NCBI GenBank assembly: GCA_049472335.1
Contig: JBLIRO010000001.1
Span: forward strand, 87,015 to 151,014
Length of the DNA: 64,000 nucleotides
Direction: 5' to 3'
From: a bacterium
GTDB taxonomy: Bacteria > SZUA-182 > DTGQ01 > JAFGSM01
Part shown: one piece after another, positions 670-60,994 of the stretch
How the letters are laid out: each line of letters begins with the position of its first letter
Position numbering within the stretch: position 1 is the stretch's first letter
Notes under the pieces: model-generated
Seen by the model: the letters and a program-made list of their open reading frames with translations, nothing else
Databases searched by the model: none
Told to the model about the DNA's origin: nothing
Made by a program: the position numbers and the translations under genes

Positions 670-1266
670 TTTTGCCAGCGGAGATTTCATGGAGGAGATT
701 ATGAAAAGGATATGTATGGTTGGGACAGCTACTTCGAGGCCCTTGGATTATTGGTAGATGGACGGATAGACCTGGCAAAGGCGATGGTTGATAATTTTGT
801 TTACGAGATCACCTATTAAGGAAAGATCCTCAATGCCAACCGCTCATATTATCTGACACGCTCCCTGCCGCCTTTTCTGACATCTATGGCCTTAGCCGTA
901 TATGAGCATCTCCCCAGAGACCCCACAAGCAAGGAATGGCTCATGAAGGTTTTTCAGGCCGCCATTAAGGAGTATCGTGAAGTATGGATGGTCAAGGACA
1001 GGCTTACAAAGATCGGGCTCAGCCGATACTACGGCGAAGGGATCGGTCCTCCCCCGGAAGTGGAGCCTGGGCATTTTGATGCGGTTTATAAACCGTATGC
1101 AAAGAATTTCGATATGACGGTAGCCGAAGTTGACGATTTCTGGTCTGGTTTAAAGGAAATATTTCAAGAAGGTTTCTCAGGCGGAAGTGAAGGAAGCTCT
1201 GGTGGAGGTGGTTTTTCAGGTGGGGGAGGAGGTTTTGGAGGAGGCGGAGCCAGCGGTGGCTGGTAG
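670..1266 (+). pseudogene. GH37 trehalase fragment with an in-frame TAA, fused to a Gly-rich YgcG/TPM-type C-terminal tail
   Basis: Frame 1 reads [25 protein letters not shown] (trehalase signature-like), then EITY-TAA(817-819)-GKILNANRSYYLTRSLPPF, then LSRYYGEGIGPPPEV. The ORF ends in SGGSEGSSGGGGFSGGGGGFGGGGASGGW, which is typical of TPM/YgcG C-termini. Most of both trehalase ends is missing. Confidence 0.6.
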
Positions 1267-1347
1267 CTGTTGCAGTAAACAAAAGATCCCTCCGGATGCA
1301 GGAAATAAACATTAAGAGCTATTTTATCCAACCTGCACGATCCCCAA

Positions 1348-1785
1348 ATGGTGCATCATTCTCCAGTACGGACTGGACCGGAACCTCGTTGGCAGGAAAA
1401 CCGGCACAAATCCGTGTGTGTTGCCCCTCAATTTCATGAAAATCATGTGGTTACCGAAACCTTTACCTTCAATCTGCTTATGGGACATCGATGGGCTCCC
1501 CATCCGGAAGATATGCAGGAAGCCGAAACCATCTGCCATGAGCTTGGAATCAGTGAGGTACTCTTAAGGATGCCCAAAGGACTGCTACAGATGGGGGGAG
1601 ATGCCGGATGGCAGCTCTCCCATGGTGAAAAAAGCCGCCTTTACATGGCAAGGGCACTTCCCCAGAAGTCGGATTTTATCATCCTGGATGAAACCTTTGC
1701 AGCCTTAGATCCCCAAATCCTTGAACAATGCCTTCAATGCATGCTCCGCCGGGCCCAAACCCTCTTGGTTATCACACACCGGTAA
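1348..1785 (+). pseudogene. ABC transporter ATP-binding domain, C-terminal fragment (copy 1)
   Basis: APQFHENHVV, an LSHGEKSRLYMARAL signature-like motif, a Walker B FIILDE and an H-loop LLVITHR are present. There is no Walker A and no transmembrane domain upstream. Confidence 0.7.
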
Positions 1786-2001
1786 ATAAAAACATAAACC
1801 AGAACCATAATGATTTACTCAGTGGCTTATCTAAATTTAATCTTGGGTTTTGGGCCTTAGTATCTGTTTTGACAAAAGTTGGGTTCTTGTCTATACTGAT
1901 TTTTAGGAAAACAAATCCTATCAAAATCAGACAAATTTTCTCAGACAAAAAAAGGGATTTATTTTAGATTGACACAAAAAAAAGTAAAATAGGAGGCAGT
2001 C

Positions 2002-2208
2002 ATGGAATCAATAGAGACAAAATTTAACAAGCTTCCTGATTATCTTAAGGAAGAGGTTGAGGATTTCATTGATTTTCTAATTATCAAGAAAAAGATTTCA
2101 AAGAAGAAAAAACTCCCAAAACTTGATTGGATAGGGGGATTAAAGGAGTATCGAAACCAATATACAGCAGTCAATTTGCAGAAAAAGGCATCAGAATGGA
2201 GAGACTGA
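2002..2208 (+). CDS. Type II antitoxin, DUF2281/VapB-like
   Basis: 68 aa with KLPDYLKEEVEDFIDFLIIKKK. The stop TGA (2206-2208) overlaps the ATG (2208-2210) of the PIN gene. AGGAGG lies upstream. Confidence 0.6.
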   Translation: MESIETKFNKLPDYLKEEVEDFIDFLIIKKKISKKKKLPKLDWIGGLKEYRNQYTAVNLQKKASEWRD

Positions 2209-2603
2209 TGTATCTAATAGATACCAATATTTTTCTGGAAGCCCTCTTAGAACAAGAAAAAACAAACATTGTTAGGTCTTTTTTTCAATCCATAGACTTA
2301 AGGGATATGCTCATAACAGATCTTTCGCTTCATTCAATAGGGATCATTTTGTTCAGATTAAATAAATTTGAGCTTTTTGATATATTACTCAATGACATTA
2401 TAATTGATGGGATAGGTATTATTTCTCTAAAACTAAGTGACTTGAAAGAATTAAAGGACATTTCTAAAGCTTTTAATTTGGATTTCGATGATGCATATCA
2501 ATATTTGGCATCTGAAAAACATGATTTGTTAATTATCAGTTTTGATAAAGATTTTGACAGAACAAAGAGAAAAAGGAAAGAACCACAAGAAATAATTTCA
2601 TGA
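2208..2603 (+). CDS. vapC: PIN-domain toxin (VapC-like)
   Basis: MYLIDTNIFLE carries the N-terminal acidic residue, and DDAYQYLASEKHDLLIISFDKDFD lies near the C-terminus. The track ORF starts earlier (2127). An overlapping ATG at 2208, or at 2196, is more plausible. Confidence 0.7.
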   Translation: MYLIDTNIFLEALLEQEKTNIVRSFFQSIDLRDMLITDLSLHSIGIILFRLNKFELFDILLNDIIIDGIGIISLKLSDLKELKDISKAFNLDFDDAYQYLASEKHDLLIISFDKDFDRTKRKRKEPQEIIS

Positions 2604-2929
2604 ATCTTGTCTTTCTATTAAATGCCGTTATAAAGGGAGATCCTTACTAAGCCTTTCTATGCTGGCTGATCAAGATGGGCAGGGTAAAAGATTTATGAGA
2701 ACATTAATATCTGCAAATATTTTTCTGATATTCTTTTCTTGTAAAAGTTCTCCAAACAACAGAGGCTACTTTATGGTAGCCATGCGTATAGAACCGGATG
2801 AAACCATAACCATAAGGAGTTACTAAAAATCCTTCTCGACCAAAAGAGATAATATTTGATACTTTAACCTTCAACTGAGTCATAGAAAAATTCTTATCCA
2901 GGAATTCTTATCCTGGGGATTATTTTCCC

Positions 2930-3212
2930 TCAACTAGTACTACCCAATTTATTTTGTTTAAAGGGAAGATTATACAATTTTACTATATTTGGCAACCCGC
3001 CCGAGGTTCTTATTTCAATCCTGTCTTCATATATAGGGATGCGTATTGGGACACTGATAGTATAATCCCTATGGGCAATTGCATTTACAATAGCTTCTCT
3101 CAGGGCGGTTTCCGGCATCTTCAATACTATTTTGTATCCAAATACCTTAATTTCATATTTTTTGGAAAGTACAATATTAAAATGGACAGAACCGATGTTA
3201 GAGCCAATTGCC
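2930..3212 (-). pseudogene. C-terminal fragment of an AlbA_2 / HATPase_c_4 (RecG-like putative DNA-binding) protein
   Basis: LREAIVNAIAHRDYTISVPIRIPIYEDRIEIRTSGGLP is the conserved core of that family. The N-terminal two thirds are absent, and the ORF runs into the start of the CHAT gene. Confidence 0.5.
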
Positions 3213-3298
3213 ATGGGAGGCAAAAAGAAAATTATAAAAAAGATATTTTTGATATTGTATGGAAAATAATCTAATATAATCCTTAAAAGGAGGGAATC

Positions 3299-6200
3299 GT
3301 GGATCAAACCATCAACCTGCTCCACTTAAGGATTAAACAAGAGGACTCTGGTGACCATGTCATCTGTCTCCGGTCGGGCAGCGAAACCTTAGCCGAATCC
3401 CCCGCTCCCCAGGGCATCCTCCATTGGTCGGATATTCCCACCCTGCATGCGATATTCGGCAGACCCGGCCAATCCGTTAAAGGGATAACTCCCCGGGAGA
3501 TATCACCCATAGGCACAAGACTCTACAATGGGCTCTTTCCGGGCCCTATCCATGAAGCATTTACAGAGGCCATCCGGAAAGCAAGATTAAGCCGATCTAT
3601 CATAGACCTTCGCTTTCAGGCGGACGCATCGCACCTCCTCTCACTTCCCATCGAGCTCATCCACCACCCTGAGGAAGGCTATCTGCTTCTTAAACCCTAT
3701 ATCTCCTTCTCCCGCCATCCCCTCCTCGATATCAAACCCGGGGACGCATCAGGTCCGCCCCTAAAAGTCCTCATGTTTGTATCAAGCCCCGAGGATGCCC
3801 CTCCTATCCTGGACTTCGAAAAAGAACAGGACAACATAATCCAGGCCCTTGATCCTTACATCAGCAAAGGGGAAACCATTGTAGACATGCCGGATGAGGG
3901 CACAATGGACACCCTTAAAGAATATTTGGACCGCGGTGGCTACCAGGTACTCCACTTCAGCGGCCACGGGAACTTTGATCCCCGAAAAAACGAGGGATGC
4001 CTGCTCTTTGAAAACCAAAAGGGACAAAAGGAGGAAATCCCGGCTCATCGGCTTGCAGACCTTCTCATCAGCTATCCCAGCCTTCGCCTTGTTTTCCTCA
4101 GCGGTTGTCAGACAGCCCACATTGACTATGACATATTTGCCGGGGTCTCCCAGCAGCTTCTCAAAAACGGTATCCCCATGGCGATAGGGATGCAGCACTC
4201 CGTCTCAGACGAAGGTGCAACCGCATTTGCCTCCTCATTCTACGGGGAGCTTCTCAAGGCCCACAGTGCAGGCTGGGCACTCGCATCAGCCCGCACAGCC
4301 CTCTGGGAGCATAACAAAAACTCCTTTGAGTGGGCAACCCCTGCACTCTATGGGGGCGGATGGATCGGGGAGGTCGTTAACCTTGCAAAAGAACCCCAGG
4401 CGCCCCTGGAGCCCAGGGGAAAACCCAGGGCCTTCTATGCAGGGGTAAGCTATCTGGAGCAGGGATTTGTCGGAAGGCGCTCAGACCTTTGCGCACTCAG
4501 GGGAAAGATCCGCGAAGGGCAGACAGGCATCGCCATCTGCGGGCTGGGCGGCATAGGGAAAAGCACCCTCGCCACCCGTCTTTTGGAAAGGCTTCACTGG
4601 GAAGAAGGCATGGACATCATGGTGTTTCAAAAAGAGGTATCCCCGGAGCAGGTGGTCTCCTCCCTGGGTGACACCCTGGGAGGGGAATGCTCCCGGATCG
4701 GTAAATCTCCTGATCTTCCCTGGGGGAAAAAGCTCACCGCCCTTCACAACACATGGCCTGAGAAAAAAATAGCCCTCCTTTTTGACAACTTCGAGGACAA
4801 CCAGCACCACGACGGCAGCATCAAAGACCAGGAGGTCCGGAAAATGCTCACCGCCCTTTCAGCCATTGACAGGAAAAGGCTCCTGCTCATAATCACCACG
4901 CGGTACTGGCCCGACATCCTTTACCGTCATAACCTGGGGGATATGGGCCTTACAGGAAGCATCAAGAAGATGTACCGCTATCCCGCGCTTCGGGAGTTGG
5001 ATCTTTCCATAAAAAAGGAAATTTACGATCGTCTGGGGGGCCAGCCCAGGTCCCTGGAGCTTCTTGCGGGCCTCCTCCGGACCATGGAGAAGACATGGGA
5101 CACGGTAAAACACAGGGTGTCAGAGGTAGAAGAAGATGCCCGACAGGACCTCATGCTGGATATTCTCTGGGAGGAGCTCAGCCATAAGGAGCGGGATCTG
5201 CTCAAAAGGATATGGGTCTACCGTCTGCCCGTGGACGAGGACGCCCTCACCCTCCAGGCTCAGGAAAGGCCTGTCGATACTCACATAGCGAGTCTGGCAG
5301 ACCGCTCCCTCATCCATGCAGGCAAGGATGAAGAAGATGTCTTTCGGTATTTCATCCACCGTCTCACTGCAGGGTATGTAAAGGACAGGGTCACGGATGA
5401 AGAGGCAAGGGATGCCCACAGGGTCGCTGCGCGCTACTATGAATACCGGCTCAGGAACCAGGAAAAAGACATAGATATTTTCCTTGAGGCCCGTTATCAC
5501 CACCTTGGTGCAGGGAACCTCCGTAGGGCGGCTGAGATCGCCTTTGCTGCTGAAGGTCCCCTGAGGATCTGGGGTCATATCGAAAGGGCACGGCAACTGA
5601 ATCAGGAGACCCTGGAGCGGGCGCCTGATGAGAGGACCCACGCCATTGCCCTGCACAATCTGGGGATCATTGAGCAAGGCCAGGGTGAGTATGAGAAGGC
5701 GCTCTCCATGTATGAGGAAGCTAGAAAGATTGCTGAGCGCATCGGCGATGTGGCTGGGGTTTCAGCGAGCTACCACAATATAGGAGCAATTTATCAGGAT
5801 AGAGGCGACTATGACAAGGCTCTTTCCATGTTTGAGGAATCTAGAAAGATAAAAGAGCGCATCGGCGATGTGGCTGGGCTCTCTAAAAGCTACCACCACA
5901 TTGGGGTGATCTATCAGGATAGAGGCGACTATGACAAGGCTCTTTCCATGTTTGAGGAATCTAGAAAGATTGCTGAGCGCATCGGCGATGTGGCTGGGGT
6001 CTCTAAAAGCTACCACCAGATTGGGAGGATCTACCAGTATCGAGGCGACTATGACAAGGCTCTTTCCATGTTTGAGGAATCTAGAAAAATAAAAGAGCGC
6101 ATCGGCGATGTGGCTGGGGTCTCTAATAGCTTCCACCAGATTGGGATAATCTACCAGGTTCGAGGCGACTATGACAAGGCTTTTTCCATGTATGAGGAAT

Positions 6201-6598
6201 CTAGAAAGATTTTTGAGCGCATCGGCGATGTGGCAGGGGTTTCTGCAAGCTACCACCAGATTGGGAGGATCTACCAGTATCGAGGCGACTATGACAAGGC
6301 CCTCTCCATGTTTGAGGAATCTAGAAAGATAAAAGAGCGCATCGGCGATGTGGCAGGTCTTGCATTTTCATATGGGCAGATGGGAGTCCTCTTTGAAGAA
6401 AAAGAAAATTATGAAGCCGCTTTGGAATATACCTTGAAGGCATTTTCCATAGTGAGCCAAATCGGGTCTTCACATATTCAGCTAGCGGTGACACAACTAA
6501 AACGCCTTCAGAAAAAAATGGGGACAAAAAGGTTTAATACGATCTGGAAAAAACTCACCGATCTGGATGACATACCTTATTTCTTGAAAAACGAATGA
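3299..6598 (+). CDS. CHAT (caspase-like) protease - STAND/NB-ARC-like P-loop NTPase - TPR repeat protein, paralog 1
   Basis: GTG start 7 nt after AAAGGAGGGA. CHAT dyad motifs are VLHFSGHG and LVFLSGCQTA. Walker A is GLGGIGKSTLA and Walker B is IALLFDNFED. Seven 40-aa TPR units of the form xSYHxIGxIYQxRGDYDKALSMFEESRKIxERIGDVAGVS follow. Confidence 0.85.
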   Translation: MDQTINLLHLRIKQEDSGDHVICLRSGSETLAESPAPQGILHWSDIPTLHAIFGRPGQSVKGITPREISPIGTRLYNGLFPGPIHEAFTEAIRKARLSRSIIDLRFQADASHLLSLPIELIHHPEEGYLLLKPYISFSRHPLLDIKPGDASGPPLKVLMFVSSPEDAPPILDFEKEQDNIIQALDPYISKGETIVDMPDEGTMDTLKEYLDRGGYQVLHFSGHGNFDPRKNEGCLLFENQKGQKEEIPAHRLADLLISYPSLRLVFLSGCQTAHIDYDIFAGVSQQLLKNGIPMAIGMQHSVSDEGATAFASSFYGELLKAHSAGWALASARTALWEHNKNSFEWATPALYGGGWIGEVVNLAKEPQAPLEPRGKPRAFYAGVSYLEQGFVGRRSDLCALRGKIREGQTGIAICGLGGIGKSTLATRLLERLHWEEGMDIMVFQKEVSPEQVVSSLGDTLGGECSRIGKSPDLPWGKKLTALHNTWPEKKIALLFDNFEDNQHHDGSIKDQEVRKMLTALSAIDRKRLLLIITTRYWPDILYRHNLGDMGLTGSIKKMYRYPALRELDLSIKKEIYDRLGGQPRSLELLAGLLRTMEKTWDTVKHRVSEVEEDARQDLMLDILWEELSHKERDLLKRIWVYRLPVDEDALTLQAQERPVDTHIASLADRSLIHAGKDEEDVFRYFIHRLTAGYVKDRVTDEEARDAHRVAARYYEYRLRNQEKDIDIFLEARYHHLGAGNLRRAAEIAFAAEGPLRIWGHIERARQLNQETLERAPDERTHAIALHNLGIIEQGQGEYEKALSMYEEARKIAERIGDVAGVSASYHNIGAIYQDRGDYDKALSMFEESRKIKERIGDVAGLSKSYHHIGVIYQDRGDYDKALSMFEESRKIAERIGDVAGVSKSYHQIGRIYQYRGDYDKALSMFEESRKIKERIGDVAGVSNSFHQIGIIYQVRGDYDKAFSMYEESRKIFERIGDVAGVSASYHQIGRIYQYRGDYDKALSMFEESRKIKERIGDVAGLAFSYGQMGVLFEEKENYEAALEYTLKAFSIVSQIGSSHIQLAVTQLKRLQKKMGTKRFNTIWKKLTDLDDIPYFLKNE
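5642..6480 (+). repeat. Coding tandem repeat, 120-bp period, 7 units (six near-identical)
   Basis: Blocks beginning at 5701, 5821, 5941, 6061, 6181 and 6301 are almost identical in register (…ccatgtttgaggaatctagaaagat…gagcgcatcggcgatgtggc…). Confidence 0.9.
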
Positions 6599-6671
6599 AT
6601 CCTTTTCAAGGATGACTGAATATTAAAAAAGCAAAAATATACAAACAATATGAATAAAGGAGACAAAGAAG

Positions 6672-7097
6672 ATGGAAAAGACATCCCCGCTGATGAAGAT
6701 AAATTGCCCTAACCCGGAATGCGGCCAGGGTTTCCATATCCGACTTGGGATCACTAAAGAAGAACAAAAGGCATATGCAGATGCCAATGATGGGGACGAA
6801 CTGAATGAATCCCGGGTGTGTCCTTTCTGTGAAGCTCTGGTTATCGTAAGATACAGGAAGGAGGGGCCAAAGAAAAAAAAGGAGCGTGAGCGGTCAAAGG
6901 CCTTTGGAGAAGAACTATACACATTACAGGGAAATCCATCGATCAGTGCAATATCTCTCTGGCGCTGCCCCGAATGTGATTATAAAGAGGAAGTCATCCA
7001 CTATTCGGCCCTCAATCCTCCCCAGTGTCCCACCCATAACTGCAAACTTGAACTCGTCCGGGAACCCCTGGAATCAGGGAAAGGGGTCCCGGAATGA
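6672..7097 (+). CDS. Small double zinc-ribbon protein
   Basis: 141 aa with CPNPEC…CPFC and CPEC…CPTHNC pairs separated by a Lys/Glu-rich linker. AGGAG lies upstream. The stop overlaps the next start (ATGA at 7094-7097). Confidence 0.6.
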   Translation: MEKTSPLMKINCPNPECGQGFHIRLGITKEEQKAYADANDGDELNESRVCPFCEALVIVRYRKEGPKKKKERERSKAFGEELYTLQGNPSISAISLWRCPECDYKEEVIHYSALNPPQCPTHNCKLELVREPLESGKGVPE

Positions 7098-8071
7098 TTA
7101 TTGACGATATATCCAAAGAGGTTTTTGGCAAGCTCGGCTCCGGCTGGATTGTATCATGCCTCATCCCGTCTGCCATCCTCTTTGCCGTCATCGGAATAGC
7201 GCTTTTCATCGAGCCTCCTCATGAAATGATCAGGCAGCATCAAGCCTTACAAAGGCTTTGCACTTCCATCCCAAAAACATGGTGGCCTGGCGTTATTATC
7301 CTGCTTATCATCTTTACAGGCCTTTGCCTCAAATTCTGCACCCCATATATCATCCGATTCTATGAAGGCTATGGCCCATTCTCCCTTTTTCGTCCCCTGG
7401 AGCAAAGACGCTTCAGGAATATCGAAAAAAGGCTCAAAGCGTTTATGAAAGAGGTAAAGAAAACCCCGCGAACCAACACCAATACATCTGAATTTCAACA
7501 GTTAGAACAAAAAGCACACGCCCTGGAATATCATCTTCGAAGCAGCTTCCCCCCGCCTGAATACGTCATGCCCACTGCCCTGGGGAACATCATCCGCGCA
7601 GCAGAAATCCATGGTCTTGTGCATTATGGTATAGACGCAATAATTCTCTGGCCCAGGCTGCTTCCTTTTGTCCCCGAAAAAATAACAAAAGCCCTGGGAG
7701 AGGCGTATAATTCCATGGTCCTTTGCCTGAATACGAGCATTATATTTTATACCCTCTCGCTCTTCTGGCTTATCTATTTTGGTCGTTTAAAAAACATCAC
7801 AACGCTCATATTCCTTCCTGTCCCGATCCTCTTCCTTCTCGGCTGCCTCTCCTACAAAGCCTCACTCACCTCAGGCAGGGATTTTGGACACCAGCTTTGT
7901 GCTGCGGTTGATCTGTCCAGATGGAAATTGCTCAAAGAGCTCCGCTACCCTTATCCCAAAGACCACAATGAGGAGGTGCAGCTCTGGCAGGAGATCAGCA
8001 AATTCCTTTACGGAGGCCCTCCGGTCCAAAGGAATTATAAATATGAACATAAAGACCTTAAAGATTCCTAA
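7094..8071 (+). CDS. Membrane protein of unknown function (2 N-terminal + 2 C-terminal hydrophobic helices)
   Basis: 325 aa. Hydrophobic segments are WIVSCLIPSAILFAVIGIALFI, WWPGVIILLIIFTGLCL, MVLCLNTSIIFYTLSLFWLIYF and LIFLPVPILFLLGCL, with a soluble helical middle part. The start is translationally coupled to the Zn-ribbon gene. Confidence 0.6.
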   Translation: MIIDDISKEVFGKLGSGWIVSCLIPSAILFAVIGIALFIEPPHEMIRQHQALQRLCTSIPKTWWPGVIILLIIFTGLCLKFCTPYIIRFYEGYGPFSLFRPLEQRRFRNIEKRLKAFMKEVKKTPRTNTNTSEFQQLEQKAHALEYHLRSSFPPPEYVMPTALGNIIRAAEIHGLVHYGIDAIILWPRLLPFVPEKITKALGEAYNSMVLCLNTSIIFYTLSLFWLIYFGRLKNITTLIFLPVPILFLLGCLSYKASLTSGRDFGHQLCAAVDLSRWKLLKELRYPYPKDHNEEVQLWQEISKFLYGGPPVQRNYKYEHKDLKDS

Positions 8072-8105
8072 CTTAACAGGATCAACCAAATAACAGGGGC
8101 ATTCA

Positions 8106-11100
8106 ATGACAATTAAGGCAAAAGAAATCCGGTTGACTATCGATCAGCATAAAAACATGATCCGTCTTCAGGACAGAGGCATAACCCTGGCGGAATCCCC
8201 CTTAAACCATGAGATCCTTACTTGGAAAGACATGCCAACCCTCCAGGCACTGTTTCGTGGTCCGGGGCAGACTATAAAAAGGATTTCACCCGAAGACCTG
8301 TCCGCACTGGGCACAAGGCTCTATCAAGGATTCTTTCCCGGGGAAATCCATGAAGCATTTACTGAAATCCTCAGGAAGGCAAACCAGAGCCGGACCAGGA
8401 TAGACCTGCATCTTGAAACGGACTCATCGCACCTCATCTCCCTTCCCCTCGAGCTCATCCACCACCCTGAGGAAGGATACCTTCTCCTGAATGACTGTTT
8501 CTCATTCTCACGTCATCCCCTCCTCGGTATGGAACCTGGGGATGCATCAGGACCGCCCCTTAAGATCCTCATGTTTGTCTCAAGCCCTGCGGATGCACCC
8601 CCTATCCTTGACTTTGAAAAAGAGCAGGATAACATCATCTGGGCACTTGATCCTTATATCAGCAAAGGGGAAGCCATTGTCGACATGCCGGATGAGGGCA
8701 CAATCGACACCCTTAAGGAATACCTGGACCGGGGAGGTTACCAGGTCCTCCACTTCAGCGGTCACGGCCTATTTGATCACAAAGAGGGGGAAGGCTGTCT
8801 CCTCTTCGAGAATGACCGGGGACAAAAAGAGGAAATCCCTGCAAAACATCTCGCAAAGGTATTGAAAAACTATCCCAGCCTTCGCCTTGTTTTCCTCAGC
8901 GGTTGTCAGACAGCACGCATTGACTATGACATATTTGCCGGGGTCTCCCAGCAGCTTCTAAAAAACGGCATCCCCATGGCGATAGGGATGCAGCATTCAG
9001 TCTCGGACGAAGGTGCGACCGCATTTGCCTCCTCCTTTTATGGGGAGCTCCTCAAGGCCCACAGTGCAGGCTGGGCACTCGCATCCGCCCGCACAGCCCT
9101 CTGGGAGCGCAACAAAAGCTCCTTTGAGTGGGCAACCCCCGCACTCTATGGAGGCGGATGGATCGGTGAGGTCGTTGACCTTGCAAAAGAACCCCAGGCG
9201 CCCCTGGAGCCCAGGGGAAAACCCAGGGCCTTCTATGCAGGGGTAAGCTATCTGGAGCAGGGATTTGTCGGAAGGCGCCTGGACCTTCGCACACTCAGGG
9301 GAAAGATCCGCGAAGGACAGACAGGCATCGCCATCTGCGGGCTGGGCGGCATAGGAAAGAGCACCCTCGCCACCCGCCTTTTAGAAAGGCTTCACTGGGA
9401 AGAAGGAATGGATATCCTGGTGTTTCAAAAAGAGGTATCCCCGGAGCAGGTGGTCTCCTCCCTGGGTGATACCCTGGGAGGGGAATGCTCCCGGATCGGT
9501 AAATCCCCTGATCTTCCCTGGGGGAAAAAGCTCACCGTCCTTTACAACACATGGCCTCAGAAAAAAATAGCCCTCCTTTTTGACAACTTCGAGGACAACC
9601 AGCACCACAACGGAAGCATCAAAGATCCGGAAGTCCGGAAAATGCTCACCGCCCTTGCAGCCATTGACAGAAAGAAGCTCCTGCTCATTCTCACCACACG
9701 GTACGGACCCGATACTCTCTACCGTCACAACCTGGGGGATATGGGCTTTACAGGAAGCATCAAGAAGATGTACCGCTATCCCGTACTTCGGGAGTTGGAT
9801 CTTTCAACAAAGAAGGAAATATACAATCGTCTCGGGGGCCAGCCCAGGTCCCTGGAGCTTCTTGCGGGTCTTCTCCGGACCACGGAAAAGACATGGGACG
9901 CGGTAAAACACAGGGTATCACAGGCAGAAGAAGAGGCCCGCCAGGACCTCATGCTGGATATTCTCTGGGAGGAGCTCAGCCATAAAGAGCGGGAGTTGCT
10001 CAAAAGGATATGGGTCTACCGTCTGCCCGTAGACGAGGACGCCCTCACCCTCCAGGCACAGGAAAGGTCTGTTGACAATCACATAGCGAGTCTGGCAGAC
10101 CGCTCCCTCATCCATACACGCAAGGATGAAGAAGATGTCCTTCGGTATTTTATCCACCGTCTCACTGCAGGGTACGTAAAGGACAGGGTCACGGATGAAG
10201 AGACAAGGGATGCCCACAGGATCGCTGCGCACTACTATGAATACCGGATCAGGAACCAGGAAAAAGACATAGAGATTCTTCTTGAGGCCCGCTATCACCA
10301 CCTTGGTGCAGGGAACCTCGAAAGGGCGGCCGAGATCGCCTTTTCTGCTGAATCTCCACTGAGGATCTGGGGCCATATCGAGAGGGCGCGGCAACTGAAT
10401 CAGGAGACCCTGGAGCGGGCCCCTGATGAGAGGACACGCGCCATTGCCCTGCACAATCTGGGGATCATTGGGCAAGGCCAGGGCGAGTATGACAAGGCGC
10501 TCTCCATGTATATGGAAGCAAGAAAGATTTTTGAGCGCATCGGCGATGTGGCTGGGATTTCTAATAGCTACCACAATATTGGGAATATCTACTATTTACG
10601 AGGCGAATATGACATGGCTCTTTCCATGTTTGAGGAATCTAGAAAGATTTTTGAGCGCATCGGCGATGTGGCCGGTGTTTCTGCAAGCTTACACCAGATT
10701 GGGATGATCTACCAGAAGCGAGGCGAATATGACATGGCTCTTTCCATGTTTGAGGAGGCTAGAAAGATTGCTGAGCGCATCGGCGATGTGGCTGGGGTTT
10801 CTGCAAGCTTACACCAGATTGGGATGATCTACCAGAAGCGAGGCGACTATGACATGGCTCTTTCCATGTTTGAGGAATCTAGAAAGATTTTTGAGCGCAT
10901 CGGAGATGTGGCCGGTGTTTCTGAAAGCTACCTCCAGATTGGGAGGATTTACCAGGATCGAGGAGACTATGACATGGCTCTTTCCATGTTTGAGGAATCT
11001 AGAAAGATAAAAGAGCGCATCGGCGATGTGGCTGGGGTTTCTGCAAGCTTACACCAGATTGGGAGGATCTACCAGGATCGAGGCGACTATGACATGGCTC

Positions 11101-11615
11101 TTTCCATGTTTGAGGAAGCTAGAAAGATTGATGAGCGCATCGGCGATGTGGCTGGGGTTTCTGCAAGCTTACACCAGATTGGGATGATCTGCCAGCATCG
11201 AGGAGACTATGACATGGCTCTTTCCATGTTTGAGGAATCTAGAAAGATTGATGAGCGCATCGGAGATGTGGCTGGGGTTTCTGGAAGCTTACACCAGATT
11301 GGGATTATCTACCAGGATCGAGGCGACTATGACATGGCTCTTTCCATGTTTGAGGAATCTAGAAAGATTTTTGAGCGCATCGGAGATGTAGCCAGTCTTG
11401 CATCTTCATATGCACAATCGGGCCTTCTTCATGAAGCAAAGGGTCAAAACGAGGCAGCATGTGAGTCTGTCCTGAAGGCATTTATAATTTTTAAAAGGAT
11501 CGGGTCTCCATATGCCCAACAGGCGGGAGAGATTCTTAATCGACTCCGGCAAAAAATTGGGGAGATTAAGTTTGGGACGATCTGGAAAAAATTAACCGGA
11601 GAAGAGATAAGGTAA
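8106..11615 (+). CDS. CHAT protease - STAND/NB-ARC-like NTPase - TPR repeat protein, paralog 2
   Basis: It has the same motif set as paralog 1 (VLHFSGHG, LVFLSGCQTA, GLGGIGKSTLA, LLFDNFED) and nine 40-aa TPR units. Confidence 0.85.
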   Translation: MTIKAKEIRLTIDQHKNMIRLQDRGITLAESPLNHEILTWKDMPTLQALFRGPGQTIKRISPEDLSALGTRLYQGFFPGEIHEAFTEILRKANQSRTRIDLHLETDSSHLISLPLELIHHPEEGYLLLNDCFSFSRHPLLGMEPGDASGPPLKILMFVSSPADAPPILDFEKEQDNIIWALDPYISKGEAIVDMPDEGTIDTLKEYLDRGGYQVLHFSGHGLFDHKEGEGCLLFENDRGQKEEIPAKHLAKVLKNYPSLRLVFLSGCQTARIDYDIFAGVSQQLLKNGIPMAIGMQHSVSDEGATAFASSFYGELLKAHSAGWALASARTALWERNKSSFEWATPALYGGGWIGEVVDLAKEPQAPLEPRGKPRAFYAGVSYLEQGFVGRRLDLRTLRGKIREGQTGIAICGLGGIGKSTLATRLLERLHWEEGMDILVFQKEVSPEQVVSSLGDTLGGECSRIGKSPDLPWGKKLTVLYNTWPQKKIALLFDNFEDNQHHNGSIKDPEVRKMLTALAAIDRKKLLLILTTRYGPDTLYRHNLGDMGFTGSIKKMYRYPVLRELDLSTKKEIYNRLGGQPRSLELLAGLLRTTEKTWDAVKHRVSQAEEEARQDLMLDILWEELSHKERELLKRIWVYRLPVDEDALTLQAQERSVDNHIASLADRSLIHTRKDEEDVLRYFIHRLTAGYVKDRVTDEETRDAHRIAAHYYEYRIRNQEKDIEILLEARYHHLGAGNLERAAEIAFSAESPLRIWGHIERARQLNQETLERAPDERTRAIALHNLGIIGQGQGEYDKALSMYMEARKIFERIGDVAGISNSYHNIGNIYYLRGEYDMALSMFEESRKIFERIGDVAGVSASLHQIGMIYQKRGEYDMALSMFEEARKIAERIGDVAGVSASLHQIGMIYQKRGDYDMALSMFEESRKIFERIGDVAGVSESYLQIGRIYQDRGDYDMALSMFEESRKIKERIGDVAGVSASLHQIGRIYQDRGDYDMALSMFEEARKIDERIGDVAGVSASLHQIGMICQHRGDYDMALSMFEESRKIDERIGDVAGVSGSLHQIGIIYQDRGDYDMALSMFEESRKIFERIGDVASLASSYAQSGLLHEAKGQNEAACESVLKAFIIFKRIGSPYAQQAGEILNRLRQKIGEIKFGTIWKKLTGEEIR
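10440..11520 (+). repeat. Coding tandem repeat, 120-bp period, 9 units (eight near-identical)
   Basis: Blocks at 10501, 10621, 10741, 10861, 10981, 11101, 11221 and 11341 are in register and nearly identical. Confidence 0.9.
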
Positions 11616-11631
11616 GCTAATCTGAAAAAGG

Positions 11632-13161
11632 TTACTGCCCGGCATCCTTTTTTTCGAGGTACCTGAGACAAATACAAAGCACCTGTTCCATAGCACCTCG
11701 CACATTGTAATCAGTCCAGTCAACTCCACAATGGCTCCACGGCATTCGATAAGGCTTTATGATGTTGAGGTTGTCACGATCCGTATGGTAGTAATTCAAG
11801 TAATCATAATAACGAAGTCCACACAATGAAGAGGCCTTCAGGCCTCCACGGACAAAACCAGCGGCATCTGTCCCGCCGGCAATTCCCGGCATAGGTTCCA
11901 CAACGTGATTGATCTTGAGGTCACCGGCACATTCCTTCAACAAATTATAAACTTCAGGGCTTAAAGACGTACCGGTGGTCTTTTCTTTCGAGTAAATCTT
12001 CACAAGGCCCGTGTCACTGATGGATTCCATATTAACGACTGTTGTGTCGATATCATTGTATTCCCGGGCATGCCGACGCGCAAAGGCCTCGGAACCGCGC
12101 AGGCCTACCTCCTCGCATCCAACGATTGCAATGACAACTTCGGTATTTTGAGGAACCTTCTCAGGATTGTGCTCCTTCCAATCCTTAAGGACTTTCGCTA
12201 CAGCCATGGCCGGCGCTACTGCTGACAGGTTATCCACTGCACCGGGAATAGCCTTACTGCTTGCAAAAAAGAATAGTGCAATTAAAGCAGGCAAGTTTAA
12301 GCAAAAAACCAGTACGAGCGTGCGCTTCAATGCAAAGTTACCAGGGCTGGACATATACGGGATCAGAATAAAGGTAACACTTACAGCATAGCTAAGAACC
12401 AGAAGGAGAATCATTTTGGTCTTCTTCTCCATGTTTCGGAAAATCCCGAAGAAAAGATTTGAATTGCCTTTTAACAATAGAATTAAAAGGGGCAGGAGCC
12501 ACGATAAGAGTACAACACCGATGTCTATTACAATAACCGTTTTCAGAGAAACAGCCCCGAATATACCGAACAAGAGCTGAGCTATGTAAATAACCAGGTA
12601 TTCAACAAGGGCAAGGATACCGCTCACAAGGAACAGGACATGCCCGGCTCCGGTGTAGTGAATGAGATTAAATCGGTAGGCGCTGTCAAGATGACCGCTG
12701 AAAATTATGCGTTTCTTGACCCTACCCTGCGGCTTGATGATTCCCACGACATTTTGGGAGGTTCTTTTTTGGTATGGCAGGAACTTTGGCGTCCACTCCT
12801 CGTATTTGAAGAACTGTTTGTAGAATAAAAGAAAAGCAAAAAGAATCAATCCAATGCAGACCAGAGAAAACACAACCGGCTGTACCTGTATCAAGAAGAA
12901 GAACAGAGCACAACTGATAATGATCAATCCTACAACTAACCTGATCCAGCCAAGAAAGGCTTTGGGATAACAGGTAAACTCTTCAATTTGGACTTCGTCG
13001 CAATGCTTTCCAAGTTCATCTTCAACGAGCATGGCCGCTTTTCTTTCAGCTTCCGAGCAGGGAGCGCGCGAACCAACCCCGGTAAGGATTCGCTCGATAA
13101 TCCCATACATATAATCCGAATTCTCGTCGGAATCGATCTGATATTTAGTCTTTTCATCCAT
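11632..13161 (-). CDS. M28-family metallopeptidase with an inserted multi-TM region
   Basis: IFSGHLDSAYRFN, IVGCEEVGLRGSEAF, GGTDAAGF and YHTDRDN motifs are present, with several long hydrophobic stretches in the middle. Confidence 0.7.
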   Translation of the reverse strand: MDEKTKYQIDSDENSDYMYGIIERILTGVGSRAPCSEAERKAAMLVEDELGKHCDEVQIEEFTCYPKAFLGWIRLVVGLIIISCALFFFLIQVQPVVFSLVCIGLILFAFLLFYKQFFKYEEWTPKFLPYQKRTSQNVVGIIKPQGRVKKRIIFSGHLDSAYRFNLIHYTGAGHVLFLVSGILALVEYLVIYIAQLLFGIFGAVSLKTVIVIDIGVVLLSWLLPLLILLLKGNSNLFFGIFRNMEKKTKMILLLVLSYAVSVTFILIPYMSSPGNFALKRTLVLVFCLNLPALIALFFFASSKAIPGAVDNLSAVAPAMAVAKVLKDWKEHNPEKVPQNTEVVIAIVGCEEVGLRGSEAFARRHAREYNDIDTTVVNMESISDTGLVKIYSKEKTTGTSLSPEVYNLLKECAGDLKINHVVEPMPGIAGGTDAAGFVRGGLKASSLCGLRYYDYLNYYHTDRDNLNIIKPYRMPWSHCGVDWTDYNVRGAMEQVLCICLRYLEKKDAGQ

Positions 13162-59511: not shown

Positions 59512-60217
59512 ATTTCTCTTTCTCTAAATGTCCTAAAATCATTCGGAAGTTATAAAAAATCCCTTATAATTATAAGGTTATGTTTTTTAAGTATTATTTC
59601 CTGATGATTATTTTATCAGTATAGTAAAGATACTGAAAAAATTCAAACTGGAGAGAAATTTCAGGGAATTTCCGACATCTTTTAGATATTAAAATCTATT
59701 ACGACTTGATAAAGATAAAACAACCTAATATAATTAAAATTATAAGTCTGTTAATTATCAATATACATTCTGGTATACAGGATCTCATCTAAAATCTCTT
59801 TGTTGTTGAATCACTTTTAAAGACAAAATTAAATATATTTATAAACCAAGTTTAAAGTTATTTATTATAATAGCTTAATTATGTTTATAAAAATAACAAA
59901 CAAAGAGTATCAAAAGCTTATTTTGCACATTAGAGCCCCGCCTTATGGAATTTCTTGAGGTTTTTGCCTTTTTCAATCATTTAATCAAATGAAATATATA
60001 GATAAGAAGGCAATACCTGATAAATGATTGATAAATTCAAAAGGGCCTAATATTAATATGGCAAAAAAGGATTTATAGAAGTAATTTTTTTGCATTCTTT
60101 GTATATTACTAACAACTTTGATAAAAACATTATTATTGCCTTGAATGCCAATTAGATATCGAGTTGAGGAGTAATTGAATTGGATCCATGGCTGTCAAGG
60201 TCCATGGAGGTAATACA

Positions 60218-60994
60218 ATGAAAAAGATTATTTTGATCCTTTGTGTTGTAATGATTGCAGTGGGTATCTGTCTTACCGGAGCAGAAGCATACTTCGGCGG
60301 CCTCTTTGCCCCGAATGGACTCCTCAGTAGCGCCTATTATGGCGGTCTTGGTTTTTATGGCGGGCTTTATGGCGGGCTCTATGGCGGCCTTGGCCTTTAT
60401 GGCGGAGGTCTTTATGGTGGGCTCTACGGCGGCCTTGGCCTTTATGGTGGAGGTCTTTACGGCCTTTATGGCGGCCTTGGGCTTTTAGGAGGGCTTTATG
60501 GCGGAGGATTGTACGGCCTTTATGGCGGCGGCCTTGGCCTTTTCGGTGGGCTATACGGCCTTTATGGCGGGCTGTCTCAGATTTCTCCTTTATTAACTAT
60601 AGCTCTTCTGTATAACCAGCTTTTCCCTAGTCTGCTAAATCCAGTTCCATCACCGGTCACATCCACACCGATATCCGTTCCCACACCGATTATTACTGTG
60701 CCGACACCAAATATTACAGTGCCGACCCCGCTTCTTACGGTTCCAACTCCAATAATTACGGTCCCAGCCCCGATAATTAATGTGCCAACTCCTATCATCA
60801 CAGTACCGACCCCCATCGTTACAGTACCTACCCCAATCGTTACAGTACCTACCCCAATCATAACAGTGCCAACACCGATTATTACAGTACCGGCACCGAT
60901 TATTACGGTCCCCACTCCGATCGTTCCCATTCCGCCCCCGGTGACTCCGGTTATAACTCCCATAATCCCAATGATGCCGCTGATTATAACTTAA
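60218..60994 (+). CDS. Secreted repeat protein: Gly-Leu-Tyr-rich half followed by about a dozen TVPTPII heptads
   Basis: GGAGG lies 7 nt before ATG 60218. Signal MKKIILILCVVMIAVGICLTGAEA. Then GGLYGGLYGGLGLYGGGLYG… followed by VPTPIITVPTPNITVPTPLLTVPTPII…. Confidence 0.7.
   Translation: MKKIILILCVVMIAVGICLTGAEAYFGGLFAPNGLLSSAYYGGLGFYGGLYGGLYGGLGLYGGGLYGGLYGGLGLYGGGLYGLYGGLGLLGGLYGGGLYGLYGGGLGLFGGLYGLYGGLSQISPLLTIALLYNQLFPSLLNPVPSPVTSTPISVPTPIITVPTPNITVPTPLLTVPTPIITVPAPIINVPTPIITVPTPIVTVPTPIVTVPTPIITVPTPIITVPAPIITVPTPIVPIPPPVTPVITPIIPMMPLIIT
60676..60933 (+). repeat. Coding 21-bp tandem repeat (heptad TVPTPII) with many synonymous differences between units
   Basis: Units such as acagtgccgaccccgcttctt, acggttccaactccaataatt and acagtacctaccccaatcgtt encode nearly the same heptad with different codons. 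Confidence 0.8.

What the first reader, a model, noticed from the sequence alone, without database searches (positions are those of the whole stretch)
5642..6480. TPR array 1: near-identical 120-bp units whose differences cluster at a few codon positions
Seen: aligning the six core units gives xSYHxIGxIYQxRGDYDKALSMFEESRKIxERIGDVAGVS. Nearly all substitutions fall at unit positions 1 (A/K/N), 5 (N/H/Q), 8 (A/V/R/I), 12 (D/Y/V) and 30 (A/K/F). The other roughly 35 residues, and most of their codons, are invariant.

Established: highly conserved internal repeats with a few hypervariable surface positions are the pattern reported for ligand-binding repeat domains of fungal and bacterial NLR-like proteins. 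There, unequal recombination reshuffles the units.

Inference: these positions probably line the ligand-binding groove, and the array is a rapidly evolving recognition surface.
Basis: partly seen in the sequence, partly recalled or inferred. Interest (0 to 1): 0.65.

Follow-up and report, generated by a model that had tools for sequence, protein, structure and literature searches.

The report
Variable-tipped TPR sensor of bacterial NLR
The repeat array is the sensor end of a bacterial NLR-like protein (protease, ATP switch, TPR repeats) whose copies are kept alike except at a few exposed residues; this pattern is real but already described for fungal and bacterial NLRs.

Summary
The array sits in a 1099-aa ORF (3299..6598, +) with CHAT protease, NB-ARC-like STAND NTPase and TPR domains. 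It has five, not six, highly similar 120-bp units (5765..6364, 81-91% nt identity), a more divergent first unit (5645..5764) and a degenerate cap (6365..6484).

Unit positions 1, 5, 8, 12 and 30 carry 75% of the amino-acid differences. A tandem paralog (8106..11615) has seven such units that vary at the same positions. So do 28 distant homologs, mainly at 30, 8, 1 and 12.

Non-synonymous change at these sites runs 2-4 times the synonymous rate, against about 0.1-0.3 elsewhere. Positions 1, 5, 8 and 12 equal canonical TPR positions 2, 6, 9 and 13, on the face of helix A opposite the packing core, the known concave ligand face. Position 30 is exposed and inward-phased, but I could not place it in 3D.

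Units diverge less at synonymous sites (0.15-0.28) than the ortholog does (0.42-0.47), and positional orthology of units is lost. Both indicate concerted evolution with unit turnover.

This is a new member of a known kind (high-internal-conservation NLR repeats). The ligand, the immune role and strain-level length polymorphism remain untested.

The parts
3299..6598 (+). ORF1, 1099 aa: CHAT - NB-ARC-like STAND NTPase - TPR (NLR-like protein); identical to an NCBI MAG protein annotated 'tetratricopeptide repeat protein'
   Evidence: P0001, 100% identity, 153.8-kb contig; AlphaFold2 model with mean pLDDT 90.6 and pTM 0.81
3512..4354 (+). CHAT (caspase-like) protease domain, aa 72-352; His223 (3965..3967) and Cys270 (4106..4108) are the putative catalytic dyad
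   Evidence: PF12770 E=4.1e-35; H219, H223 and C270 are at least 90% conserved in 80 homologs
4466..5395 (+). STAND NTPase module (aa ~390-699): Walker A GLGGIGKST (4541..4567), Walker B LLFDNFED (D496), R535, GGQPRSLE 'GxP' motif (aa 580-587), winged-helix/helical domains
   Evidence: NB-ARC 26.4 bits against a cut-off of 23.5 when the region is scanned alone. Invariant G415, G418, G420, K421, D496 and R535. Foldseek hits to 6mfv, Apaf-1, CED-4, MalT, NRC3 and Sr35
5396..5644 (+). Degenerate helical-hairpin (TPR-like) lead-in, aa 700-782, joining the NTPase to the repeat array
   Evidence: helices H700-720, 725-737, 741-757, 761-773 and 778-794 in the model
5645..5764 (+). Unit A0: first TPR unit, 69-76% nt identity to the core units and 92% to B0 of the paralog
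5765..6364 (+). Units A1-A5: five 120-bp / 40-aa core units of high internal conservation. The hypervariable codons lie at unit start + 0, +12, +21, +33 and +87 nt (positions 1, 5, 8, 12, 30)
6365..6484 (+). Unit A6: degenerate capping unit (about 34-37% nt identity to the core units, 78% to the ortholog's cap, 59% to the paralog's cap)
6485..6598 (+). C-terminal helical tail and stop codon
6672..7097 (+). 141-aa protein with four CxxC-type pairs (zinc-ribbon-like), no family match. Conserved with the cassette in L001
7094..8071 (+). 325-aa predicted multi-pass membrane protein of a very small family (7 proteins). Conserved with the cassette in L001
8106..11615 (+). ORF2, 1169 aa: tandem paralog with the same architecture (82% aa identity). 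92-97% nt identical to ORF1 over its central ~1.5 kb, much less at both ends
10443..11522 (+). Array B: units B0-B8. The core B1-B7 (10563..11402) is 82-95% nt identical and varies at the same positions 1, 8, 12, 30 (plus 3; 5 varies weakly)

Best explanation
The array is the C-terminal sensor solenoid of a bacterial NLR-like STAND protein with CHAT protease, NB-ARC-type NTPase and 40-residue TPR units. The scaffold of every unit is held nearly constant. That includes the packing core and, notably, the charged convex face. One stripe of helix A (positions 1, 5, 8, 12 = canonical TPR 2, 6, 9, 13) and one exposed residue near the end of helix B (position 30) differ from unit to unit. All 12 core units of the two paralogs carry a different five-residue combination.

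Shown: the stripe lies on the face of helix A opposite the core, which in solved TPRs lines the concave ligand groove. These sites accumulate non-synonymous change 2-4 times faster than the synonymous rate. The same sites vary in 28 distant homologs. The units have been homogenised, duplicated or lost, and exchanged between the two tandem paralogs since the split from the only known close relative.

Inferred: the groove binds a protein or peptide ligand, most plausibly from a phage or other invader. Binding releases the NTPase from autoinhibition. Nucleotide exchange drives oligomerisation. Proximity then activates the CHAT protease, which cleaves cellular targets and causes growth arrest or death. 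Recombination between similar units, with selection at the contact residues, generates new specificities quickly. The two paralogs would provide two specificities.
For: - Architecture and intact motifs. The full-length model has pLDDT 90.6, and its best Foldseek matches are STAND+TPR (6mfv), LGN/Pins TPRs, Apaf-1, CED-4, MalT, NRC3 and Sr35.
- Concentration of variation.
- Selection: pN/pS at the five sites is 1.26 (array A) and 3.6 (array B), against 0.10 and 0.31 elsewhere. Tree-based non-synonymous rate at the five sites over the overall synonymous rate is 2.1, 4.4 and 2.7, with P=0.017, 3e-6 and 6e-6.
- Register to canonical TPR comes from alignment to the consensus TPR protein. A gapless 184-residue alignment to LGN puts position 8 on the ligand-binding Asn. 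Concave and ligand positions are 2, 5, 6, 9, 12, 13 (PMC1261162).
- Helical phase: hypervariable sites average 110 degrees against 290 degrees for the core.
- Family-wide recurrence: position 30 is among the top five variable positions in 25 of 28 proteins, position 8 in 21, position 1 in 20, position 12 in 13.
- Position 30 holds F, K, S, N, D, A, E and R, so it is solvent exposed.
- Concerted evolution: unit-to-unit pS is 0.28 (A) and 0.15 (B), against 0.42-0.47 for ORF1 versus its ortholog. Every A unit is closer to other window units than to any ortholog unit. Same-position identity between A and ortholog units is 71-82%, against 81-91% within A.
- Exchange between paralogs: A3-B4 are 93% identical, and the central gene region is 92-97% identical although the duplication predates the lineage split.
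- Literature for the class.
Against: - No ligand, no phenotype and no expression data. The immune role is inferred from architecture only.
- No model in PADLOC-DB (anti-phage defence systems) matched beyond a generic TPR model and weak partial CHAT/other matches, and none was an Avs model.
- Position 30 has the helical phase of the packing residues of helix B and aligns to a conserved Ala in LGN. Its place on the groove is therefore not established.
- The hypervariable sites were chosen after seeing array A. Only the array B and family tests are out of sample, and arrays A and B share ancestry.
- dN/dS on recombining repeats is approximate. Synonymous divergence inside the hypervariable codons of array A is also raised (0.44 against 0.28). 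This would fit old variants protected from conversion as well as recurrent new substitutions.
- The ortholog has the same unit count (7), so there is no direct evidence for length polymorphism among close relatives.
- The sequence comes from a metagenome-assembled genome, and I could not check reads.
Confidence: 0.72

Rival explanations
1. The TPR array is a structural scaffold. The five positions are simply the least constrained surface sites, and their variation is neutral drift that survives gene conversion. It would not be a selected recognition code.
For: All five sites are exposed. Exposed sites vary most in any repeat family. The A1-A5 sample is small, and dN/dS at the five sites in array A alone is near 1 (0.80 tree-based, 1.26 pairwise).
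Against: Other exposed residues are invariant across all 12 units: D17, S21, E24, E25, K28, E31 and R32 on the convex face of helix B (K18 is fixed as Met in array B). Exposure alone therefore does not explain the variation. In array B the non-synonymous rate at the sites defined from array A is 4.4 times the synonymous rate (P=3e-6). The same four positions recur in 28 distant homologs. All 12 units carry different combinations.
Confidence: 0.1
2. The variable stripe does not read a foreign ligand. It mediates self contacts instead: autoinhibitory docking of the TPR arm on the NTPase, homo-oligomer contacts, or specific pairing between the two tandem paralogs or with the two small cassette proteins.
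For: In STAND+TPR proteins such as 6mfv and MalT, which are the best and a further fold match, the sensor arm contacts the NTPase in the resting state (this statement rests on my own knowledge). The four-gene cassette is conserved in the only close relative.
Against: Self contacts should be conserved or co-vary with a partner. Here the NTPase regions of the two paralogs are 92-97% identical while their variable residues differ in every unit. The family-wide pattern occurs in homologs that lack the two small genes.
Confidence: 0.12
3. The array, or the order and number of its units, is an assembly artefact: collapse or chimerism of similar repeats or of co-occurring strains in a metagenome assembly.
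For: The sequence comes from a metagenome-assembled genome. Repeats of 81-95% identity in two nearby genes are a known hazard, and fungal HIC arrays needed long reads to reconstruct (PMC12222747 title and abstract; PMC13449251).
Against: The longest exact repeat is 59 bp within array A, 71 bp within array B and 101 bp between the genes. That is shorter than ordinary reads and large assembly k-mers. Both ORFs are intact and in frame. An independent metagenome contig (L001) has the same gene order and the same 1+5+1 unit layout.
Confidence: 0.04
4. The variable codons are written by a targeted mutagenesis system (a diversity-generating retroelement), as in other bacterial STAND sensors.
For: DGRs diversify sensor domains of STAND/NLR-like proteins, including CHAT-containing ones, in multicellular bacteria (PMC10907252).
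Against: No reverse transcriptase or template repeat was found among the ORFs scanned in the 64-kb window. Known DGR targets there are C-type lectin folds, not TPRs. The variable codons differ at all three bases and among all nucleotides (for example AAA, GCT and TTT at position 30), which is not adenine-specific. I did not scan the rest of the 153.8-kb contig or genome.
Confidence: 0.02

Closest known systems
High-internal-conservation (HIC) TPR repeats of fungal NB-ARC/NACHT NLRs (Podospora anserina Pa_2_10340, PaPnt1 and others; Dyrka et al. 2014, PMC4986451; Ament-Velasquez & Saupe 2026, PMC13449251)
   Same: NB-ARC plus TPR with units about 80-90% identical; a handful of hypervariable sites under diversifying selection on the concave face; concerted evolution; exchange of units between paralogous genes.
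   Different: The fungal units are mostly 42 residues, and here they are 40. The fungal cases have demonstrated repeat-number polymorphism between strains, which is untested here. Effector domains differ (here a fused CHAT protease). The organism here is a bacterium.
Bacterial/archaeal NLR-like 'all-in-one' proteins CHAT-(TIR)-NB-ARC-TPR (Koonin & Aravind 2002; Dyrka et al. 2020, bioRxiv 10.1101/2020.01.06.895854)
   Same: Identical domain order. HIC TPR units of 80-90% identity are explicitly noted for bacterial NLRs. About 250 homologs with E<=1e-10 were found here across many phyla, many with 80-97% unit identity.
   Different: That work proposed, but did not analyse per site, the diversification regime in bacteria. 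This locus adds a tandem paralog pair with gene conversion and two lineage-specific small genes.
Avs (antiviral STAND) and bacterial NACHT defence proteins (Gao et al. 2022; Kibby et al. 2023; cited through PMC10907252)
   Same: Tripartite effector-STAND-sensor layout. TPR-type sensors bind conserved phage proteins and trigger effector activation by oligomerisation. This is the mechanistic model adopted here.
   Different: No PADLOC Avs or bNACHT model matches. To my knowledge, characterised Avs sensors are not arrays of units with high internal conservation. Anti-phage activity of this protein is untested.
LGN/Pins (GPSM2) TPR domain, PDB 3sf4, 3ro2, 6hc2
   Same: 40-residue TPR units that align without gaps over 184 residues (E about 1e-27). 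The ligand peptide lies in the inner concave channel and is held by the Asn of the Leu-Gly-Asn triplets, which equals unit position 8 here.
   Different: It is a eukaryotic polarity scaffold with no NTPase or protease. Its units are not internally conserved. Its position 30 equivalent is a conserved Ala.
Craspase TPR-CHAT (Csx29) of type III-E CRISPR systems
   Same: Combines TPR repeats with a CHAT protease that is switched on by a recognition event.
   Different: The domain order is reversed (TPR N-terminal). There is no STAND NTPase. Activation comes through Cas7-11/crRNA, not through the TPR reading a ligand. No CRISPR-like array appears among the window's tandem repeats.

Membership tests
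STAND / NLR-like NTPase (NB-ARC, AP-ATPase clade) | P-loop NTPase with Walker A GxxxxGK[ST] and Walker B hhhhD[DE] | tested here: met
   GLGGIGKST (aa 415-423) and LLFDNFED (D496). G415, G418, G420, K421 and D496 are invariant in 80 homologs
STAND / NLR-like NTPase (NB-ARC, AP-ATPase clade) | Match to the NB-ARC profile above Pfam's gathering score | tested here: met
   26.4 and 26.5 bits against a cut-off of 23.5 when aa 360-760 are scanned alone. This is marginal: 22.6 bits for full-length ORF2. NACHT, nSTAND3 and nSTAND6 score lower
STAND / NLR-like NTPase (NB-ARC, AP-ATPase clade) | Fold of NBD-HD-WHD as in Apaf-1, CED-4 and plant NLRs, including the GxP motif | tested here: met
   Foldseek probability 1.00 to 6mfv, Apaf-1 (3sfz, 1z6t), CED-4, MalT, NRC3 and Sr35. 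GGQPRSLE is conserved (G580, G581, P583)
STAND / NLR-like NTPase (NB-ARC, AP-ATPase clade) | Tripartite layout: N-terminal effector, central NTPase, C-terminal superstructure-forming repeats | tested here: met
   CHAT aa 72-352 with H223/C270, NTPase aa ~390-699, TPRs aa ~700-1062
STAND / NLR-like NTPase (NB-ARC, AP-ATPase clade) | Ligand-induced nucleotide exchange and oligomerisation | not testable with these tools
   Needs biochemistry
HIC (high internal conservation) NLR repeat arrays | Units about 80% or more identical to one another, far above ordinary TPRs | tested here: met
   A1-A5 are 81-91% nt identical with median aa identity 0.80. B1-B7 are 82-95% nt identical. This is at the lower end of the class; homologs reach 0.97
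HIC (high internal conservation) NLR repeat arrays | A few hypervariable positions with an excess of non-synonymous change | tested here: met
   The methods are approximate (counting methods, recombining repeats)
HIC (high internal conservation) NLR repeat arrays | Hypervariable positions lie on the ligand-binding (concave) surface | tested here: inconclusive
   Positions 1, 5, 8 and 12 meet this by register to canonical TPR 2, 6, 9, 13, by the LGN alignment and by helical phase. Position 30 is exposed and phased toward the A-helix layer, but no coordinates were available
HIC (high internal conservation) NLR repeat arrays | Concerted evolution and unit exchange within and between loci | tested here: met
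   Unit pS is 0.15-0.28, below the ortholog pS of 0.42-0.47. Positional orthology is lost. A3-B4 are 93% identical. Gene conversion has occurred between the paralogs
HIC (high internal conservation) NLR repeat arrays | Repeat-number polymorphism among strains or alleles | tested here: inconclusive
   The paralogs differ by two units (7 against 9). The single close ortholog has 7 like ORF1. No other close relative was found in the protein database or in the metagenome and genome scans
Avs / bNACHT anti-phage defence families | Match to the family profiles used for defence-system annotation (PADLOC) | tested here: not met
   Only a generic TPR model and weak SAVED_CHAT, PDC and BovA partial matches
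Avs / bNACHT anti-phage defence families | Protection against phage; binding of a phage protein | not testable with these tools
   Needs experiments
DGR-diversified sensors | Nearby reverse transcriptase plus template repeat, with adenine-specific variation | tested here: not met
   No RT among the window ORFs scanned. The variable codons differ at all bases

The most novel reading that the evidence does not exclude
The conserved four-gene cassette works as one unit: NLR-like protein, zinc-ribbon-like protein, four-pass membrane protein of a 7-member family, and a second NLR-like protein. Two sensors of different specificity, kept similar in their signalling core by gene conversion, would converge on one downstream effector. 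The CHAT proteases would cleave the membrane protein (or the small zinc-ribbon protein) to release a membrane-damaging activity. This would be a gasdermin-like logic with an unrelated effector family.
Probability: 0.1. Interest if true: 0.6.

Novelty: new member of a known kind. Interest (0 to 1): 0.3.

Why it matters
The locus gives a clean bacterial example of the repeat regime first described in fungal NLRs: units kept alike while their contact residues are kept different. Two arrays sit side by side, and one ortholog allows the turnover to be dated relative to a lineage split. The family-wide analysis names the candidate specificity positions of this 40-residue TPR class (1, 8, 12, 30, and less so 2, 5 and 11). 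That is directly usable for ligand-swap experiments or for engineering. It does not change current understanding, because HIC repeats in bacterial NLR-like proteins are already on record.

Tried and rejected
- Close relatives for length polymorphism. Two scans each of metagenome contigs and genome contigs were run. The first pair, with the single protein, confirmed nothing. The second pair, with a three-sequence alignment, returned only distant homologs of about 24-38% identity. The protein database holds one close ortholog only (P0003).
- 3D mapping. The AlphaFold2 model is confident, but the session exposes no coordinates. Solvent exposure and concavity could not be computed, so I used register, a solved homolog and helical phase instead.
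- Defence-family annotation. PADLOC gave nothing specific. NCBIfam gave only generic TPR hits and a weak HetF (CHAT) match far below cut-off.
- The two small cassette genes. They have no Pfam, NCBIfam or PADLOC match. They are absent from the 55 distant-homolog loci. Distant relatives of the membrane protein sit beside PLD, Mrr and methylase genes, not NLRs. Its structure model is poor (pLDDT 61), so I ran no fold search on it.
- Opposite strand. ORFs 5762..6256(-), 5120..5677(-), 9918..10574(-) and 6623..6922(-) have no family match and are best read as stop-free artefacts of the repeat. There are no Rfam hits in 2600..12000. Promoter and terminator scans are at background level.
- DGR. Rejected; see the rival explanations.

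Full report
**What is at the coordinates.** The finding lies at the 3' end of a 1099-codon ORF (3299..6598, + strand). Tandem Repeats Finder reports a 120-bp period array at 5690..6354 (5.5 copies, 86% matches), and a second, longer one at 10482..11389. Core units are 81-91% identical in nucleotides. A0 is 69-76% identical to them and A6 about 34-37%.

**The variable positions.** The residues listed for positions 1, 5, 8, 12 and 30 are correct. Five other positions (3, 20, 23, 39, 40) vary once or twice. Thirty residues are invariant, 20 codons are strictly invariant and 10 more vary only synonymously. The five named positions carry 75% of the pairwise non-synonymous differences. Random placement of the same number of changes never reproduced this concentration in 200,000 simulations.

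**What the protein is.** Pfam finds a CHAT caspase-like protease domain (aa 72-352, E=4e-35) and strong TPR_12/TPR_10 matches. Between them lies a P-loop NTPase with several conserved motifs: Walker A GLGGIGKST, Walker B LLFDNFED, a conserved arginine (R535) and a GGQPRSLE motif. In an 80-sequence alignment these residues, and the CHAT residues His219, His223 and Cys270, are invariant or nearly so. Scanned alone, the NTPase region passes the NB-ARC gathering score (26.4 against 23.5 bits), ahead of nSTAND3, NACHT and nSTAND6.

A full-length AlphaFold2 model built on that alignment is confident (mean pLDDT 90.6, pTM 0.81). Its best Foldseek match in the PDB is 6mfv, a STAND ATPase with TPRs. 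The next matches are LGN/Pins TPR domains, Apaf-1, CED-4, MalT, NRC3 and Sr35. The protein is thus an 'all-in-one' NLR-like STAND protein with effector, switch and repeat sensor. The same protein is on record as an unnamed TPR protein of a bacterial MAG on a 153.8-kb contig. The rest of the window holds ordinary bacterial genes, including two-component sensors, a sigma-54 activator, a PEP-utilising enzyme with pyruvate phosphate dikinase domains and an amylase. It holds no reverse transcriptase.

**A built-in replicate.** A tandem paralog (8106..11615, 1169 aa, 82% identical) carries nine units, B0-B8. Seven of them (B1-B7) are core units of 82-95% nucleotide identity. Array B varies at positions 1, 8, 12 and 30 with four residue types each, weakly at 5, and also at 3. 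The overlap with the positions defined from array A has hypergeometric P=5.5e-5. Of 41 inferred non-synonymous changes in B, 28 fall on the five positions defined from A (P=1.7e-16). All 12 core units of the two genes carry a different five-residue combination.

**Excess of non-synonymous change.** Pairwise Nei-Gojobori counts give pN/pS of 1.26 (A) and 3.6 (B) at the five codons, against 0.10 and 0.31 at the other 35. I also ran codon parsimony on neighbour-joining trees built from the non-variable codons. The non-synonymous rate per site at the five codons, relative to the synonymous rate of the whole unit, is:
- 2.1 for array A (P=0.017);
- 4.4 for array B (P=3e-6);
- 2.7 for both arrays (P=6e-6);
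- 2.3 with the ortholog's units added.

These are counting methods on recombining sequences. In array A the synonymous divergence inside the variable codons is also raised (0.44 against 0.28). The data therefore cannot separate recurrent new substitutions from old variants that selection shields from homogenisation. Either way, selection maintains diversity at these sites.

**Where the positions sit.** phmmer alignments to consensus TPR proteins (8bu0, 9qhb) fix the register. Canonical TPR position equals unit position plus one, with a six-residue insertion (DVAGVS) between repeats. The variable positions are therefore TPR 2, 6, 9, 13 and 31. Magliery and Regan showed that positions 2, 5, 9, 12, 13, 33 and 34 are the most variable and lie on the concave face. 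They also showed that HOP uses 2, 5, 6, 9, 12 and 13 to bind its peptides (PMC1261162).

The closest natural solved relative is LGN, whose 40-residue units align to this array without a gap over 184 residues. Unit position 8 falls on the Asn of the Leu-Gly-Asn triplets, which hold the ligand backbone inside the concave channel (PMC3438535).

From the model's DSSP, helix A spans unit positions 36(previous)-13 and helix B spans 16-33. On a helical wheel positions 1, 5, 8 and 12 cluster at a mean of 110 degrees. That is exactly opposite the packing residues 3, 6, 7 and 10 (TPR W4, L7, G8, Y11) at 290 degrees.

Position 30 is different. It lies one turn before the end of helix B, in phase with the packing residues A19, F23 and S26 (120 against 106 degrees). 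It therefore points toward the A-helix layer, not to the convex face. It accepts F, K, S, N, D, A, E and R across the family, so it must be exposed. I infer that it lies at the rim of the groove near position 1 of the next unit. The session gave no coordinates, and in LGN the equivalent residue is a conserved Ala, so this point is open.

The charged residues on the outer face of helix B behave the opposite way. D17, S21, E24, E25, K28, E31 and R32 are invariant among all 12 units, and K18 differs only between the arrays. Exposure alone therefore does not explain the variable sites.

**The pattern is a family property.** I used a profile of the 12 units to extract ungapped 40-residue units from the 120 best homologs. 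Thirty proteins have a median unit identity of 0.75 or more, up to 0.97. In the 28 that are not the window paralogs or their ortholog, within-protein entropy peaks at position 30 (among the top five variable positions in 25 of 28). Next come position 8 (21), position 1 (20), position 12 (13) and position 2 (12). The window's arrays are a middling example of a widespread regime, not an exception.

**Evidence for turnover and reshuffling.** The only close relative is a 5980-bp metagenome contig (L001). It carries an ortholog of 76% identity with the same length and the same 1+5+1 unit layout. The same neighbours follow: a 142-aa gene, a 326-aa gene and the start of a second NLR-like gene.
- Synonymous divergence between ORF1 and this ortholog is 0.42-0.47 in the CHAT, NTPase and first-unit regions. 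Unit-to-unit synonymous divergence is only 0.28 within array A and 0.15 within array B.
- Same-position identity between A1-A5 and the ortholog's C1-C5 is 71-82%, below the 81-91% within A. Every A unit is closer to other window units than to any C unit. The C units are only 70-82% alike.
- Some units match best across the two genes (A3-B4 at 93%; C1 matches B1 best, at 84%).
- The paralogs differ by exactly two units.
- Gene-wide, ORF1 and ORF2 are 92-97% identical from about 4184 to 5684, but 58-76% identical at the 5' end and 61% at the cap. The 5' ends pair with their respective L001 genes (79% against 73%). The duplication is therefore older than the lineage split, and the central identity reflects later gene conversion.

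Together this is the signature of concerted evolution with unit gain, loss and exchange. It is what the literature describes as both cause and consequence of high internal conservation. True strain-level length polymorphism could not be examined.

**Artefact check.** The longest exact repeat is 59 bp within A, 71 bp within B and 101 bp between the genes. Reads and large k-mers can bridge them. Both ORFs are intact, and an independent assembly shows the same layout. Collapse is unlikely, but it cannot be excluded without reads.

**Mechanism.** The following are shown:
- the domain architecture with intact catalytic and nucleotide-binding motifs;
- the location of four variable sites on the ligand face;
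- the selective regime;
- the turnover of units.

The rest is inferred by analogy with Apaf-1, plant NLRs and the bacterial Avs proteins as summarised in PMC10907252. A ligand bound in the TPR groove would release autoinhibition. Nucleotide exchange and oligomerisation would follow, and clustered CHAT domains would become active proteases that arrest or kill the cell. The immune role is plausible but untested. No PADLOC defence model beyond a generic TPR one matches.

**Comparison with the known, and novelty.** The closest described phenomenon is the HIC TPR arrays of fungal NB-ARC NLRs, which show concave-face hypervariable sites, repeat-number polymorphism and inter-gene unit exchange (PMC4986451; PMC13449251). 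For bacteria, Dyrka et al. noted NLRs with TPR/WD units of 80-90% identity and 'all-in-one' CHAT architectures, and suggested the same regime. Ament-Velasquez and Saupe report HIC NLRs in all domains of life. This locus is a new member of that known kind. The modest additions are a per-site analysis for a bacterial 40-residue TPR class, the prominence of a helix-B site (position 30), and a tandem pair homogenised by gene conversion.

**Side observations.** The two small genes between the paralogs are conserved only with the close relative. The membrane protein belongs to a family of seven known sequences with conserved RFYEGY, PTALGN and WPRLL motifs. Whether it is a substrate or effector of the CHAT proteases is speculation.

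Noticed in passing
window 3299..11615; L001 467..5979: A four-gene cassette is conserved between the window and an independent metagenome contig. It consists of an NLR-like gene, a 141-aa zinc-ribbon-like gene, a 325-aa membrane-protein gene (its start overlaps the previous stop by 4 nt) and a second NLR-like gene. The two small genes are absent from 55 loci of distant homologs.
   Followed up: partly
window 7094..8071: The 325-aa multi-pass membrane protein belongs to a very small family (7 proteins in the 5.8-billion-protein search) with invariant RFYEGY, PTALGN and WPRL(L) motifs. Distant members sit beside PLD-like, Mrr-like and DNA methylase genes. The AlphaFold2 model is poor (pLDDT 61).
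   Followed up: partly
window ~4184..5684 versus ~8980..10480: Gene conversion has occurred between the tandem paralogs. They are 92-97% nt identical (pS 0.18) over the NTPase and lead-in region, against 58-76% at the 5' ends (pS 0.49) and 61% at the 3' caps. The 5' ends are orthologous to the two L001 genes, so the duplication predates the lineage split.
   Followed up: yes
window 5765..6364 and 10563..11402, unit positions 17, 18, 21, 24, 25, 28, 31, 32: The charged residues on the outer (convex) face of helix B are invariant within each array although exposed by helical phase (position 18 is Lys in array A and Met in array B). This may mean a conserved second interface, or simply strong homogenisation.
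   Followed up: no
window 886..2603: Upstream of ORF1 lie short ORFs matching only pieces of a trehalase (126 aa) and of an ABC transporter ATPase (145 aa), plus a PIN-domain ORF (2127..2603). This looks like a decayed or variable region flanking the cassette.
   Followed up: no
window 60188..60994: A 268-aa ORF with no Pfam match is built largely of 21/42/84-nt tandem repeats (60338..60922), encoding Gly/Tyr-rich and Pro/Thr/Ile-rich repeats.
   Followed up: no
window 48708..53354: A 1548-aa ORF has a von Willebrand factor A domain and a bacterial TSP3 repeat. It is large and is probably a surface or secreted protein.
   Followed up: no
P0024, P0034, P0007 (homologs): Some distant homologs have far more uniform arrays than the window: 11 units at median 97% aa identity in P0024, 95% in P0034 and 90% in P0007. 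They would be better subjects for studying the diversification regime.
   Followed up: partly
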